Shown: positions 48,251 to 51,118 of the stretch, in pieces | Numbering within the stretch: the stretch's first letter is position 1 | How the letters are laid out: every line of letters starts with the position of its first letter | DNA from: a virus | Virus record (IMG/VR): IMGVR_UViG_3300045988_162923 | Strand: one strand, 5' to 3' | DNA: 64,000 nt | Program-made: the position numbers and the translations under genes | Notes under the pieces: model-generated | The model's database searches: none | Seen by the model: only the letters and a program-made list of their open reading frames with translations | Told to the model about the DNA's origin: nothing

Positions 48251-48706
48251 ATGAATAATAATTATGGTTATCCACAATAGTTTAGTGCTATAAATCGGCC
48301 AATTTATAACACTCAACCTATTATGCCGGCATCAAATCAAAATACTACTCCAAGAGTTAGACCAGTTTCTTCATTAGATGAAGTGCGGGCAATGAGTGTA
48401 GATTTTGATGGTTCAGTATTCTATTTTCCTGACTATGCCAATAGAAGAATATATACAAAATAGATTAATATGGATGGAACTGCTTCAATCAATATGTATG
48501 AGTTAAAAGAACTTCCAAGTAATTCACAAAGTAATAATGTAGATTTTATAACACGAAATGAATTTAATAATGCTTTATCATAGATTAAAGAAGCCTTTTC
48601 TCAATTAACACAATAGGCCTAGACTAATATTAATCCACAACAACAATAGAATACTCAACCTTCGACAGAGCAAATAACTGATAATAAACCGCAGTTTAAC
48701 TTTTAA
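48251..48706 (+). CDS. Gln/Pro/Asn-rich hypothetical protein (151 aa)
   Basis: RBS GGAGGTAAAAATT precedes ATG 48251. It has six in-frame TAGs and ends at TAA 48704-48706. Confidence 0.5.
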
Positions 48707-48717
48707 GGAGGTAAGAG

Positions 48718-48963
48718 ATGATGTAGGGAATAAATCCATTGTAGATAATAGGTATGATTAAAAACGGCTAGAATCCTCAAAGTTTAATGATGTCTCTTCT
48801 GGAAAAAAATATGGGCGGAACGCCCATGGGAGATAATCTAATAAAAATGGCACGCGGGGGCCAAACCGCGGACATTGAAAAGTTTGCGAGGAATTTTTTT
48901 GAATCAAAAGGAATGAATTTTGATACTGAATTTGCGAAATTTAAATCTCAATTAGGGATTTAA
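48718..48963 (+). CDS. hypothetical protein (81 aa)
   Basis: RBS AAGGAGGTAAGAG precedes ATG 48718. It has three early TAGs and ends at TAA 48961-48963. Confidence 0.45.
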
Positions 48964-48998
48964 ATAAAATATTATAACTTTTGAAAGGGGTTATTTGT

Positions 48999-49871
48999 AT
49001 GTTTAATTATGGTGGTTTTCCAACTCAGCAATATTCTTTATCTGATATTGCAGCTGCTTCTGGTAATGGTTATCGCAATGGCGATAATGGTATGTGGGGC
49101 GATGGTGCTTGGTGGATTATTATCCTGTTCTTGTTCTGCTTTAATGGCTGGGGCAATAACGGCTGGGGTAATAATGGTAATACTGGTTATCAAGGTACTA
49201 CTACAAGAGAAGAATTAACTTATGGATTTGATATAAGTGATCTTAAATCTGGAATTAATTCTTTACAGACTGGCTTATGTAATGGTTTTGCTAATGTAAA
49301 TAACAATTTACTTTCTGGTTTTGGTAATGTTACTGAGACTATTAATAGTAATGCTCGTTCTTTATCACAAGATATTTGTAATATGGGTATTAACAATATG
49401 CAAAATACCTTCGGTATTACTTAGGCTATTAATGCTGATACTGTTGCTGGTATGTAGAATACTAATAATATTACTCAGCAATTAAATAATATGGCAGCAA
49501 CAAATGCTCATTGCTGCTGCGAGAATAAGAATCTTATTACATCAAGTTTTGCCGATTTAAATTATAATTTAGCAAGTCAAGCTTGTCAAAATCGTCAAGT
49601 AGTTAATGAAGGAGTAAGAGACATTATTGATAATACTAATGCTAATATACGTTCTGTTCTTGACTTCTTAGTACAGGATAAAATTGAAACTCTTACTACT
49701 GAAAATGCTACTCTTAAAGGCTAGATTTCTCAAAATTTACAAAATGCTTATCTGATTGAGCAATTAAGTCCTAAAGCATCTCCTGCTTATATTGTAGCAA
49801 ATCCATATACTGGTAATACTTATACTACTTATGGCTGCGGTTATGGTAGTGGCTGTGGATGTAATTCTTAA
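48999..49871 (+). CDS. Gly/Asn-rich, cysteine-rich membrane-anchored protein (290 aa)
   Basis: ATG 48999. Track ORFs 48981 and 49491 share the frame. It has one TM segment (WWIIILFLFCFNGW), a tandem GWGNNGWGNNGN repeat, a CCCENKN motif and a C-terminal GCGYGSGCGCNS. It ends at TAA 49869-49871. Confidence 0.55.
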
Positions 49872-49891
49872 TAAGAAAAGAGGTTTTCTAA

Positions 49892-50317
49892 ATGGAAATA
49901 ACAGCAAATGCTTTACAAACGGTTAATACCAATAGTAATGTAGTATTTACTAATACCGCTGTTGCTGGCAATTGTTCTATGATACACCGTGAAGGAAGCG
50001 GCTTAGTAACATTACGTGGTATCACTTCTGCGAATCAACGAAAAGCCCGATTCCGTATATTATTTGGTGGTAATATAGCAGTTCCTACTGGCGGAACTGC
50101 TGGAGCGATTTCTTTAGCAGTTGCCATAAATGGGGAACCAGTAGAAACAACAACTATGATTTCTACTCCTACCGCAGTAGGACAATTTAATAATATTTCT
50201 TGTTCTTTATTCTTAGATGTAATTGGAGGTTGCTGCACTTAGGTTAGTGTTGAAAACACTGGTACTTAGGCTATCTCTTTACAAAATGCTAATTTAATTA
50301 TTGAACGAGTAGCTTAA
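49892..50317 (+). CDS. BclA C-terminal-domain-like (TNF/C1q-like) protein, 141 aa
   Basis: RBS AAGAGG precedes ATG 49892. The C-terminus ...AISLQNANLIIERVA mirrors the ...IIEKVA end of the BclA C-terminal domain, and the beta-rich V/T/G-rich body also resembles it. It has two TAGs and ends at TAA 50315-50317. Confidence 0.5.
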
Positions 50318-50331
50318 GGGGGTAAATTAGA

Positions 50332-50814
50332 ATGTGCGATTATGAAAGCGTAAGAGAACAATTAATGGCGCAAGTTGAATGCCAAATGTCTAATTTAGCC
50401 TGTGTTGATGCTCATGAATTAGGTGAAGTTATTGATATGATAAAAGATTTAGAAGAAGCAAAGTATTATTGTTCAATTACTGAAGCAATGGAAAAAGCTT
50501 CTGAAGAAGAAATCTTATATTATACTGAAAAATATCCTAAAAATAAAGCAAGTAAATATATGACTGATACGCATATGGAAACAGCTTGGGATGATGACAA
50601 AATAGGTCGTAGTCCTTCTGCCCGTAAAGCGTATTTAGAAGCTCAACAAAACCATAAGGATAAGACTATTCAACTTAAAGAGTTAGATAAATATATTTCA
50701 GATTTAAGCTCTGATATAGTTGAAATGATTGAAAATGCTTCAAATGATGAAAGGTCTTACCTTGAAAGAAAAATTTCGGCTTTAGCAACTAAAATTGGTT
50801 AGATGAATGTTTAA
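50332..50814 (+). CDS. acidic cysteine-containing hypothetical protein (about 160 aa)
   Basis: RBS AAGGGGGTAAATT precedes ATG 50332. It is TAG-free until TAG 50800-50802, then reads MNV to TAA 50812-50814. Confidence 0.5.
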
Positions 50815-51118
50815 TATAAATGGAAGGAATTGGAGGGTGCTTTTAGTACCCTCCAATTTTTCTAAATTGTCCAAACGTAATGGAGTAAAAGCATTAGGAT
50901 CTTGTGATGATAAGACTAGTACAATATATATAAATAGAAGATTAGAAGAAGATAAATTATATCATGTTTTATGTCACGAAATAACTCATGCTTTTATGTT
51001 TAGCTATGATATTAAATTAAATTTAGATTAGTAGGAATTAGTTGCTAATATCATTAGTGATTATGGATTTGATATAATCCAATAGACTGATGAAATATTT
51101 AAATAGATAAAAAAATAA
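50807..51118 (+). CDS. small HExxH zinc-peptidase-like protein (ImmA/IrrE- or SprT-like), about 103 aa
   Basis: ATG 50807 overlaps the upstream gene's C-terminal extension. The motif ...LYHVLCHEITHAFMF... is present. It ends at TAA 51116-51118. Confidence 0.4.

What the first reader, a model, noticed from the sequence alone, without database searches (positions are those of the whole stretch)
48251..51118. Accessory cassette: BclA-C-terminal-domain-like protein plus cysteine-rich and Gly/Asn-repeat proteins and an HExxH peptidase
The cassette lies between the regulator and the replication genes, with its own terminator at 51117. Its six small plus-strand genes include a protein ending ...LIIERVA like the exosporium BclA TNF-like domain. 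They also include a membrane-anchored protein with GWGNNGWGNNGN repeats, CCCENKN and a GCGYGSGCGCNS tail, a Q/P/N-rich protein and an ImmA/SprT-like HEITH protein. The composition resembles spore-surface or exosporium components of spore-forming Firmicutes, so these may be host-phenotype (moron) genes rather than virion parts. The function is unknown, and to my knowledge this combination is not a described phage module.
Basis: partly seen in the sequence, partly recalled or inferred. Interest (0 to 1): 0.65.

Follow-up and report, generated by a model that had tools for sequence, protein, structure and literature searches.

The report
Mobile phage operon with BclA-like protein
A self-contained six-gene operon in a gut phage that reads the TAG stop codon as glutamine encodes a membrane-anchored helical protein and a small protein with the fold of the anthrax spore-surface protein BclA. 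The same operon recurs in many gut and rumen phages, but it appears to be a dispensable add-on of unknown function, not a spore-coat gene set.

Summary
The six genes are real at the stated coordinates, but only if TAG is read as glutamine: they hold 19 in-frame TAGs, and the whole window is TAG-recoded.

**g3 (48999-49871).** It has one hydrophobic helix, long helices and a Cys/Gly tail. I found no evidence for a CdeC/CdeM relationship.

**g6.** It is a minimal HExxH peptidase.

**Distribution.** g1-g5 form a fixed-order module whose five families are all PHROGs of unknown function. I found it in over 100 loci: 100-200 kb recoded phages, 40-60 kb temperate phages (next to the integrase), and Butyrivibrio phage Ceridwen, which has been seen only to grow lytically on a non-sporulating host. 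The module is bounded by terminators, distributed patchily, and lost in two natural deletion variants. It therefore behaves as an accessory, moron-like unit.

**Verdict.** The spore-surface and lysogen-phenotype reading is not supported. My best guess (about 0.4) is a membrane-tethered g3 stalk with a g4 trimeric head, acting at the envelope of the infected cell. The function remains unknown.

The parts
47285..47313 (.). Bidirectional terminator hairpin that closes the late operon after the holin gene (46888-47277) and also ends the minus-strand regulator gene. It forms the upstream boundary of the cassette's transcription unit.
   Evidence: 13-pair stem with 7 GC pairs. A relative that lacks the regulator has an equivalent hairpin between the holin and g1 (L026 6322-6363).
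47975..48250 (+). AT-rich intergenic region upstream of g1, presumed to hold the cassette's own promoter (not demonstrated).
   Evidence: a TTAATA-18-TATAAT match at 48041-48070, but promoter-like hits in the region are no more frequent than in shuffled sequence. A GGAGG ribosome-binding site lies at 48238-48242.
48251..48706 (+). g1, 151 aa, 6 TAG codons. It has a Q/P/N/Y-rich N-terminus, a small conserved domain (RPVSSLDEVRA..DFDGSVFYFPD...IYTKQ), the helix 'ITRNEF', and a Q-rich tail ending FNF.
   Evidence: phrog_21718 (unknown function): E 2e-4 for the window protein and 5.5e-36 for the Dulem virus 33 homologue. Found in 113 of 122 loci. No Pfam, NCBIfam or PDB match.
48718..48963 (+). 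g2, 81 aa, 3 TAG codons. A small, probably helical protein with NPQ motifs.
   Evidence: The small-phage homologues fall in phrog_22984, unknown function. Found in 102 of 122 loci. No PDB match of note.
48999..49871 (+). g3, 290 aa, 3 TAG codons. It has a conserved acidic N-tail (MFN..YSLSDIAAASG), one hydrophobic helix (AWWIIILFLFCF, residues 38-48), a Gly/Trp/Asn linker, two long helices (about 79-144 and 151-256) carrying an invariant-type CCC[ED] motif, and a Cys/Gly tail.
   Evidence: AF2 pLDDT 56.8, used for secondary structure only; CCC in 108 of 119 sequences; 2-7 Cys in nearly all tails; it is the only cassette protein with a membrane-like segment; the N-tail is net negative in 97% of 67 unique sequences. 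phrog_16490, E 6e-34. 3759 homologues, none with a Pfam domain.
49892..50317 (+). g4, 141 aa, 2 TAG codons. A stand-alone TNF/C1q-type jelly-roll protein, closest to BclA-type C-terminal domains, with a conserved GCC motif (113-115) and the C-terminus LIIERVA.
   Evidence: CC in 118 of 119 sequences; 827 clusters at 50% identity; the best 150 are all 71-196 aa. phrog_20016, E 7e-50.
50332..50814 (+). g5, 160 aa, 1 TAG codon. It has conserved acidic N-terminal helices (ELGEVIDMIKDLEEA.YYC), a variable low-complexity middle region (R/Y/G/D-rich in relatives) and conserved C-terminal helices.
   Evidence: The small-phage homologues fall in phrog_28802, unknown function. Found in 107 of 122 loci. 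No Pfam or PDB match.
50807..51118 (+). g6, 103 aa, 4 TAG codons. A minimal HExxH (HEITH) zinc-peptidase-like protein. Its start overlaps the end of g5 by 8 nt.
   Evidence: DUF6782 27.4 bits (cut-off 27), Peptidase_M78 21.9 (cut-off 22), SprT-like 20.2 (cut-off 25.6); phrog_1233 at 4e-16 and peptidase phrog_13742 at 3e-8. Found in 93 of 122 loci.
51109..51154 (.). Bidirectional terminator hairpin that closes the cassette and also serves the convergent minus-strand gene at 51154-51597.
   Evidence: 20 pairs with a T-run on both strands. L026 has an equivalent hairpin at 9180-9206.

Best explanation
The cassette is a self-contained, horizontally mobile accessory operon. It belongs to a phage of gut Bacillota in which TAG encodes glutamine.

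**Shown**
- Its conserved core is five genes in fixed order, g1-g5. A small peptidase gene (g6) is attached in the large phages.
- The operon sits at the end of an operon: after the holin or lysis genes, or beside the integrase.
- It lies between terminators.
- It is dispensable.

**Inferred**
- None of the proteins has a secretion signal, and only g3 has a membrane segment. The products are therefore made in the cytoplasm of the infected cell.
- g3 oligomerises into a helical stalk tethered to the cytoplasmic membrane by its single hydrophobic helix. The acidic N-tail probably faces outward and the bulk of the protein stays inside.
- The stand-alone g4 forms a TNF/C1q/BclA-type trimer that caps the cysteine-rich end of g3. 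The conserved vicinal cysteines (CCC in g3, CC in g4) would hold the complex together through metal or disulfide links.
- g1, g2 and g5, which are rich in low-complexity segments, are assembly partners.
- g6 may process one of the other proteins.
- I think the complex most likely acts at the envelope of the infected cell around the time of lysis. Candidate roles are tuning lysis, or masking or excluding at the cell surface. I do not think it builds spores or is an essential virion part.
For: **Recoding**
- Coding length doubles when TAG is treated as sense.
- TAG aligns with CAA/CAG of homologues at conserved columns.
- TAG density in the cassette is 20.5 per 1000 codons. Late genes have 20.8 and minus-strand replication genes 9.9.

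**Operon structure**
- Gaps between genes are 11-35 nt or genes overlap, and each gene has an SD site.
- Terminators lie on both sides in the window and in L026.

**Fixed module in different phage backbones**
- 100-200 kb recoded phages.
- Temperate Dulem viruses 33 and 39, beside the integrase.
- Bajarodcaudo virus 5, after the holin and a C39-like peptidase.
- Ceridwen.
- Counts over 122 loci: g4 121, g3 119, g1 113, g5 107, g2 102.

**Accessory nature**
- Of 81 loci chosen through the neighbouring RuvC-like gene, 44 are complete, 15 partial and 22 lack the module.
- Deletion variants L138 and L139 keep otherwise identical synteny.
- Flank census.

**g3 and g4 as partners**
- g4 fold.
- g4 is always stand-alone.
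- g3 architecture.
- g3 and g4 are adjacent and co-occur, and both carry conserved vicinal cysteines.
- No other cassette protein has a signal or membrane segment.
Against: - No direct evidence shows that g3 and g4 bind each other.
- The topology rests only on flank charges.
- The hydrophobic core is short, about 13 residues, and might not span a membrane.
- Adjacency to the holin is not universal. In Dulem virus 39 the module follows the integrase.
- Expression timing is inferred, not measured. TAG also occurs in the replication genes, so TAG content does not prove late expression.
- The deletion variants come from metagenome assemblies and could be defective genomes or assembly errors.
- Five of the six proteins match nothing of known function.
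Confidence: 0.4

Rival explanations
1. Virion accessory fibre or decoration. g3 (coiled-coil shaft) and g4 (TNF-like knob) would form a non-essential fibre on the capsid or tail that helps particles adhere to glycans or cells, as other TNF-like phage tips do. The hydrophobic segment of g3 would act on membranes during infection.
For: - The cassette lies on the late strand just after the tail-fibre genes and the holin.
- TAG density equals that of the structural genes.
- Non-essential decoration proteins are known (T4 Hoc, my knowledge).
Against: - The module always lies outside the structural operon, behind a terminator and after the lysis genes.
- In Dulem virus 39 it sits among lysogeny and replication genes.
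- The nearest structural matches among viral proteins are stand-alone proteins from contigs labelled Siphoviridae, Myoviridae and Podoviridae, so it is not tied to one particle architecture.
- g4 is never fused to a shaft.
- g4 has no paralogue among the window's structural proteins.
- g4 is conserved across phages of different hosts, rather than hypervariable as receptor binders are.
Confidence: 0.2
2. One reading: lysogenic-conversion (moron) genes expressed from the prophage that add BclA/exosporium-like, cysteine-rich components to the spore or cell surface of a spore-forming Firmicute.
For: - Like exosporium proteins, the products lack signal peptides and are Cys-, Gly-, Gln- and Tyr-rich.
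- The architecture is moron-like.
- In temperate phages the module sits next to the integrase.
Against: - All six genes carry in-frame TAGs. A standard-code host cannot make the proteins without the phage's suppression system.
- The module is present in Ceridwen, which has no integrase and grows only lytically in vitro. Butyrivibrio does not sporulate (my knowledge).
- There is no collagen-like region, no BclA N-terminal targeting region, and no sequence match to BclA_C or any sporulation family.
- g3 is a membrane plus coiled-coil protein, not a CotY/CdeC-type protein.
Confidence: 0.08
3. Lysis-released effector. The signal-less g4 trimer, with its partners, would be liberated when the cell bursts and act outside it as a lectin or TNF/C1q mimic on neighbouring bacteria or on the animal host. 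Shiga toxin is released this way from a late-expressed moron.
For: - The operon has a moron layout at the end of the late region.
- The habitat is the gut.
Against: - Sequence identity to eukaryotic members is only 8-14%.
- The fold is common in bacteria and phages.
- The strict linkage to a membrane protein and three further intracellular-looking proteins is not explained.
- No receptor-binding features were tested.
Confidence: 0.05

Closest known systems
BclA C-terminal domain (Bacillus anthracis exosporium glycoprotein, PDB 1wck) and F-BclA CTD (9h38)
   Different: g4 is the whole protein. It has no N-terminal exosporium-targeting region and no collagen-like repeats, and it is never fused to a longer protein. 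HMM and profile comparisons do not detect BclA. It is encoded by phages, including one of a non-sporulating host.
ExsFA/BxpB (Bacillus cereus exosporium protein, PDB 7r1m)
   Different: Only 10% identity and no sequence-level relationship. Its partners (ExsY/CotY, BclA) have no counterparts in the cassette.
TNF-superfamily type II membrane ligands with a stalk (for example ectodysplasin EDA-A1, PDB 1rj7)
   Different: Here the anchor and stalk (g3) and the head (g4) are separate polypeptides. The stalk is helical rather than collagen-like. The likely orientation is cytoplasmic. No homology is implied (10% identity).
Phage morons / accessory transcription units (as defined for lambdoid phages; Shiga toxin genes are a late-expressed example)
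   Same: An independent unit between terminators, placed at an operon boundary, distributed patchily among relatives, dispensable, and shared between unrelated phage backbones.
   Different: It is unusually large (five to six genes in fixed order) and widely conserved. It is full of recoded TAG codons, so it cannot serve an unsuppressed lysogen. A promoter and prophage expression have not been shown.
ImmA/IrrE (Peptidase_M78), SprT-like and DUF6782 minimal zincins
   Same: g6 has the HExxH motif and matches these families in the region around it. Phage peptidase PHROGs also match.
   Different: g6 is only 103 aa. It scores at or just under the curated thresholds. It is not paired with an XRE-type repressor as ImmA/IrrE proteins are. 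Its substrate is unknown.

Membership tests
BclA family (exosporium collagen-like glycoproteins) | C-terminal TNF/C1q-like jelly-roll domain | tested here: met
BclA family (exosporium collagen-like glycoproteins) | Sequence match to the BclA C-terminal domain family | tested here: not met
   No Pfam family for g4 at E up to 1. A g4 profile against PDB sequences does not find BclA.
BclA family (exosporium collagen-like glycoproteins) | Central collagen-like GXX repeat region and N-terminal exosporium-targeting region | tested here: not met
   g4 is 141 aa and the jelly roll covers residues 2-139. The best 150 of 827 family clusters are 71-196 aa.
BclA family (exosporium collagen-like glycoproteins) | Made during sporulation and located on the spore surface | not testable with these tools
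   Indirect evidence only: the module occurs in a lytic phage of Butyrivibrio.
TNF/C1q structural superfamily | Ten-strand jelly-roll topology matching many members | tested here: met
TNF/C1q structural superfamily | Homotrimer formation | not tested
CdeC/CdeM-like or CotY/ExsY-like cysteine-rich exosporium proteins (for g3) | Sequence or fold relationship | tested here: not met
   No significant Pfam, NCBIfam or PDB-sequence match. The model shows one hydrophobic helix plus long helices. These families may be poorly represented in the libraries, so this is weak negative evidence.
Moron (autonomous accessory transcription unit in a phage genome) | Bounded by its own terminator, and separated from the upstream operon | tested here: met
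   Hairpins at 47285-47313 and 51109-51154. The same arrangement is seen in L026.
Moron (autonomous accessory transcription unit in a phage genome) | Own promoter | tested here: inconclusive
   A 10/12 sigma-70-like match lies at 48041-48070, but such matches are no more frequent than in shuffled sequence. A shared 11-mer with another late-gene leader is not significant.
Moron (autonomous accessory transcription unit in a phage genome) | Present in some relatives and absent in others; dispensable | tested here: met
   44 complete, 15 partial and 22 absent among 81 loci picked through the RuvC-like neighbour. Deletion variants L138 and L139.
Moron (autonomous accessory transcription unit in a phage genome) | Expressed from the prophage, to the benefit of the host | not testable with these tools
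   The 19 in-frame TAGs argue against expression in an unsuppressed lysogen.
Zincin-type minimal metallopeptidases (DUF6782 / Peptidase_M78 / SprT-like) for g6 | HExxH motif and a family score above the curated cut-off | tested here: met
   HEITH at residues 57-61. DUF6782 scores 27.4 bits against a cut-off of 27, so it passes only marginally. M78 scores 21.9 against 22 and SprT-like 20.2 against 25.6, both below the cut-off.
TAG-to-Gln recoded phages (genetic code 15) | In-frame TAG at conserved Gln positions, and restored coding density | tested here: met
   Relatives also need the alternative code, since the encoded protein does not translate to the query under the standard table.
TAG-to-Gln recoded phages (genetic code 15) | Phage-encoded suppressor tRNA | tested here: not met
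   No tRNA in the 64 kb window. Related genomes are about 200 kb, so the tRNA may lie outside the window.
Known anti-phage defence systems | Match to PADLOC models | tested here: not met
   Only chance-level hits (E at least 0.003).

The most novel reading that the evidence does not exclude
The five-gene core may encode a previously unrecognised kind of phage-built structure. It would be a cytoplasmically assembled, cysteine- or metal-cross-linked fibre or coat, analogous to an exosporium. A membrane-anchored helical stalk (g3) would carry a separate BclA/TNF-like trimeric head (g4), scaffolded by three low-complexity proteins and matured by a peptidase. Many gut Clostridia phages of unrelated architecture would deploy it on the infected cell membrane or on released progeny.
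Probability: 0.2. Interest if true: 0.75.

Novelty: new variant of a known kind. Interest (0 to 1): 0.5.

Why it matters
**Scale.** The module is common. In protein databases derived mostly from gut and rumen metagenomes, g4 has 7383 homologous clusters and g3 has 3759. It crosses phage size classes, morphotypes, lifestyles and genetic codes. Yet all five core families are listed as 'unknown function'.

**What this work adds.** It links the five families into one unit. It also shows that one member has a BclA/TNF/C1q fold and another is a membrane-anchored helical protein. Together these give a concrete, testable entry point into a sizeable piece of gut-virome dark matter.

**Experimental route.** A cultured carrier exists (Butyrivibrio phage Ceridwen), so experiments are feasible.

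**Annotation caution.** A resemblance to spore-surface proteins in a phage does not by itself imply a sporulation role. Calling the genes correctly here depends on recognising TAG recoding.

Tried and rejected
**Family and structure searches that found nothing**
- Pfam, NCBIfam, PADLOC and PDB-sequence profile searches gave nothing for g1, g2, g3 and g5.
- The g3 structure model was too poor for a fold search.
- The afdb50 fold library was unavailable.

**Limits of the tools**
I used 96%-identical database proteins instead.
- The genome-collection scan returned only metagenome bins that hold whole phage contigs, so the host labels are unreliable.

**Tests with negative or inconclusive results**
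- A shared late-promoter motif upstream of g1 (ATTTTATATAT, also upstream of the 3065-aa gene) is not significant in this AT-rich DNA.
- A nucleotide search of GenBank phages found no close relative of the window.
- I looked for an endolysin next to the holin. The seven tail-region proteins upstream of the holin (36995-46873) show no lysin domain.
- I tested for co-variation between loss of CCC in g3 and loss of CC in g4. There are too few losses to judge.

**Ideas considered and set aside**
- g3's N-terminus as a double-glycine leader: the GG is not conserved.
- g4 as a copy of one of the window's own tail-fibre tips: no paralogue was found.
- The cassette as chance ORFs: ruled out by thousands of homologues.

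**Literature.** Searches found no description of the module.
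Full report

Under the standard bacterial code, the region 48251-51118 is a set of short broken ORFs. The sequence shows TAG repeatedly inside otherwise open frames.

Treating TAG as sense raises the summed length of ORFs of at least 100 aa in the window from 28.4 kb to 67.5 kb. Removing TGA instead has little effect. With TAG read as Gln, the window resolves into two blocks:
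- a long plus-strand block of structural genes, including proteins of 3065, 2579 and 1644 aa;
- a minus-strand replication block, with PolIII-alpha, NrdD/NrdG, dUTPase, a Dda-like helicase and a RuvC-like resolvase (Pfam on syntenic relatives).

They carry 19 in-frame TAGs. At conserved alignment columns these TAGs correspond mostly to CAA/CAG in homologues. For example, g4 codon 117 lies in a column that is invariant Gln among close homologues.

Every gene has a strong Shine-Dalgarno site, and the gaps between genes are 11-35 nt or the genes overlap. A 20-pair bidirectional terminator sits at 51109-51154. The important addition is that it depends on TAG recoding. No suppressor tRNA lies within the window.

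**2. What are the individual proteins?**

*g4 (141 aa).* It has no Pfam or NCBIfam match. It belongs to phrog_20016, of unknown function (E 7e-50), and to a family of 7383 database clusters.
- I modelled a 96%-identical homologue with a 31-sequence alignment. The result is a confident all-beta jelly roll (pLDDT 88.9, pTM 0.84).
- Sequence-level comparison with BclA fails.
- A profile search of 1.84 billion representative proteins finds 827 clusters. The best 150 are all 71-196 aa. The domain is therefore always a stand-alone protein, never the tip of a collagen-like or fibre polypeptide.
- Among predicted viral structures, the nearest are similar stand-alone gut-phage proteins. One is already labelled 'BclA protein' by automatic annotation.

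*g3 (290 aa; phrog_16490, 3759 homologues).*
- It has a conserved acidic N-tail and one hydrophobic helix, followed by a Gly/Trp/Asn linker.
- About 180 residues of predicted long helix follow, then a disordered Cys/Gly tail.
- The model is of low confidence (pLDDT 56.8), as expected for a monomer of an oligomeric coiled coil. I did not use it for fold searching.

*g6.* It is a minimal HExxH protein at or near the thresholds of DUF6782, M78 and SprT-like.

*g1, g2 and g5.* They match only PHROGs of unknown function (21718, 22984, 28802) and nothing in Pfam, NCBIfam, PADLOC or PDB sequences.

Only g3 has a membrane-like segment, and no cassette protein has a signal peptide.

**3. The cassette as a unit.**

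g3 and g4 are adjacent in many GenBank phage records. Contigs of 65-380 kb that also need the alternative code carry all six genes in the same order, between the holin and the convergent replication genes.

I fetched 80 viral loci, 34 metagenome-bin loci and several annotated records. Iterative searches of their ORFs found, over 122 loci:

| Gene | Loci with the gene (of 122) |
|---|---|
| g4 | 121 |
| g3 | 119 |
| g1 | 113 |
| g5 | 107 |
| g2 | 102 |
| g6 | 93 |
| holin | 79 |
| response-regulator gene | 28 |

The same g1-g2-g3-g4-g5 order occurs in small standard-code phages:
- Dulem virus 33, after the endolysin and before the integrase, with a homing endonuclease inserted between g2 and g3;
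- Dulem virus 39, after the integrase, with a g6 homologue;
- Bajarodcaudo virus 5, after the holin and a C39-like peptidase;
- Butyrivibrio phage Ceridwen, after the endolysin, with an HNH-like gene between g4 and g5.

A census of flanking genes shows that the module always sits at an operon end. Downstream lie convergent dUTPase, RuvC-like and 147-aa membrane-protein genes in the large phages, or a tyrosine integrase in the small ones. Upstream lie the holin and tail genes, or in small phages a 125-139 aa protein (phrog_3754) with a possible Cys/His motif.

Terminators bracket the unit in the window, and also in a relative without the regulator.

**4. Essential or accessory?**

To avoid selecting on the cassette itself, I fetched 81 loci through the neighbouring RuvC-like gene. 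Of these, 44 carry g1-g5 complete, 15 carry partial or divergent versions, and 22 show none within 7 kb.

Two near relatives with otherwise identical synteny have deletions:
- L138 has lost most of the regulator gene, g1, g2 and the 5' end of g3.
- L139 has lost g1-g4 and part of g5.

Another sub-clade keeps g1-g3 followed by a divergent TNF-like ORF that lacks the CC motif.

Three features together mark an accessory, moron-like element rather than a core virion or lysis component: the patchy distribution, the deletion variants, and the sharing between unrelated backbones. One caveat applies: all of these are metagenome assemblies.

**5. Tests of the spore-surface/lysogen reading.**

*For it:*
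- the BclA/ExsFA-like fold;
- the absence of signal peptides and the Cys/Gly/Gln/Tyr-rich composition, which also characterise proteins assembled in a mother cell;
- the integrase-proximal position in temperate phages.

*Against it:*
- Every gene needs TAG suppression. TAG density in the cassette (20.5 per 1000 codons) equals that of the late genes (20.8) and is twice that of the replication genes (9.9).
- The module is present in Ceridwen, which has no integrase and was seen only in the lytic cycle. Its host genus does not sporulate (my knowledge).
- g4 lacks the collagen-like and targeting regions that define BclA.
- Nothing connects g3 with CdeC/CdeM or CotY-type proteins.

I therefore rate this reading at about 0.08.

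**6. Most likely mechanism.**

*Shown:*
- The cassette is an autonomous accessory operon.
- g3 and g4 are strictly linked.
- Both keep vicinal cysteines: CCC in 108 of 119 g3 sequences, CC in 118 of 119 g4 sequences, and 2-7 Cys in nearly all g3 tails.
- g3 is the only membrane-associated product, and the rest have no export signal.

*Inferred:*
- g3 forms a helical oligomeric stalk tethered to the membrane.
- Its N-tail is net negative in 97% of 67 unique sequences, and its C-flank is nearly neutral. This weakly favours a translocated N-tail with the bulk of the protein in the cytoplasm.
- g4 trimers cap the Cys-rich end of g3.
- g1, g2 and g5 are partners, each with a conserved short domain plus low-complexity segments.
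- g6 may mature one of them. In small phages the phrog_3754 protein might play this role.

The arrangement works like a split version of a type II TNF-family ligand or a BclA fibre: anchor, stalk, then trimeric jelly-roll head.

The role is not determined. The unit follows the lysis genes in most backbones, and it is non-essential. I therefore favour an action at the envelope of the infected cell around lysis, such as tuning lysis timing, or masking or exclusion at the surface. Confidence in the whole statement is about 0.4.

Rivals are a dispensable virion fibre or decoration (0.2), the lysogenic spore-surface reading (0.08) and a lysis-released lectin or TNF mimic (0.05). The remaining probability covers functions I have not thought of.

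**7. Comparison with what is known, and novelty.**

g4 is a new sequence family within the TNF/C1q/BclA-CTD fold. It is not a member of the BclA family, because defining features were tested and not met. g6 is a borderline member of the minimal zincin families.

The unit fits the moron concept in architecture and distribution, but it is unusually large and conserved. Its families already exist in PHROGs as unknowns, and one homologue already carries an automatic 'BclA' label. TAG recoding of gut phages is well documented (papers listed).

Two things appear to be undescribed: the linkage of the five families into one mobile module, and the pairing of a membrane-anchored helical protein with a separate BclA-like head. 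I class it as a new variant of a known kind and score interest at 0.5. It is widespread and experimentally tractable through Ceridwen, but it has no demonstrated function.

Noticed in passing
window 1-64000: The whole window uses TAG as a sense codon (Gln), not only the cassette. There are 308 TAGs in 20 late genes and 40 in 14 minus-strand replication genes; the 3065-aa protein alone holds 107. No tRNA gene is found in the 64 kb. Related contigs are about 190-200 kb.
   Followed up: partly
window 47324-47974 (-): A LytTR-type response-regulator-like gene lies between the holin and the cassette. It is present in only 28 of 122 related loci, so it is an insertion. Its receiver domain matches only from profile position 32. 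By eye, the usual phospho-acceptor Asp context reads 'FLG' instead of 'LLD', which suggests a non-phosphorylatable pseudo-receiver (not tested).
   Followed up: partly
L002 7413-7964 (-) and L001 9347-10222 (+): Homing-endonuclease-type genes are inserted inside the module in two small phages: between g2 and g3 in Dulem virus 33 (annotated endonuclease), and between g4 and g5 in Ceridwen (an HNH-like 268-aa ORF by eye).
   Followed up: no
L138 about 10100-10320 and L139 about 8370-9310: Natural deletion variants occur among near-identical relatives. One lacks most of the regulator gene, g1, g2 and the 5' end of g3. The other lacks g1-g4 and the 5' end of g5. These may be real dispensability or assembly artefacts.
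   Followed up: partly
L140 8658-8897 (-), also L141, L142, L203: In one sub-clade, g1-g3 are followed by a divergent TNF-like ORF ('...LTFVNTGATTYSTVEVDIVKVG') that lacks the GCC motif, and by an unrelated 104-aa helical protein in place of g5 and g6.
   Followed up: no
L001 6972-7361, L002 6337-6717 and five other small-phage loci: In small phages a 125-139 aa protein (phrog_3754, unknown function) lies directly upstream of g1. It has conserved GDC[VT]VRA ... GHVV ... DTWDSG motifs that resemble a papain-like Cys/His/Asp triad. It may be the counterpart of the g6 peptidase of the large phages. This was not tested.
   Followed up: no
window 1678-1743, 3472-3602, 28524-28643, 39048-39207: Several late-gene intergenic regions share one layout: a GC-rich hairpin with a T-run, then an AT-rich 'TTATATA'-like stretch just upstream of the ribosome-binding site. 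This suggests terminator/re-initiation units along the late operon.
   Followed up: no
window 26055-26840, about 12880-13264, about 36650-36994 (+): Stretches left 'intergenic' by an ATG-only gene call are open and look like protein. One carries a tail-fibre-like motif, GLVPMPTSGSADRFLAADGIWKK. Two are in frame with the gene that follows. These genes probably start at non-ATG codons further upstream.
   Followed up: partly
window 36995-46873 (+): None of the seven proteins encoded in the roughly 10 kb upstream of the holin has an endolysin domain. One (43877-46060) has DUF6273. The 265-aa protein at 46076-46873 has short collagen-like G-X-Y runs. The endolysin of this phage is not in an obvious place in the window.
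   Followed up: partly
window 51154-51597 (-): The convergent gene just after the cassette terminator encodes a 147-aa protein with an N-terminal membrane helix and a coiled-coil region (phrog_4105/4257, unknown function). It neighbours the cassette in 93 of 122 loci.
   Followed up: no
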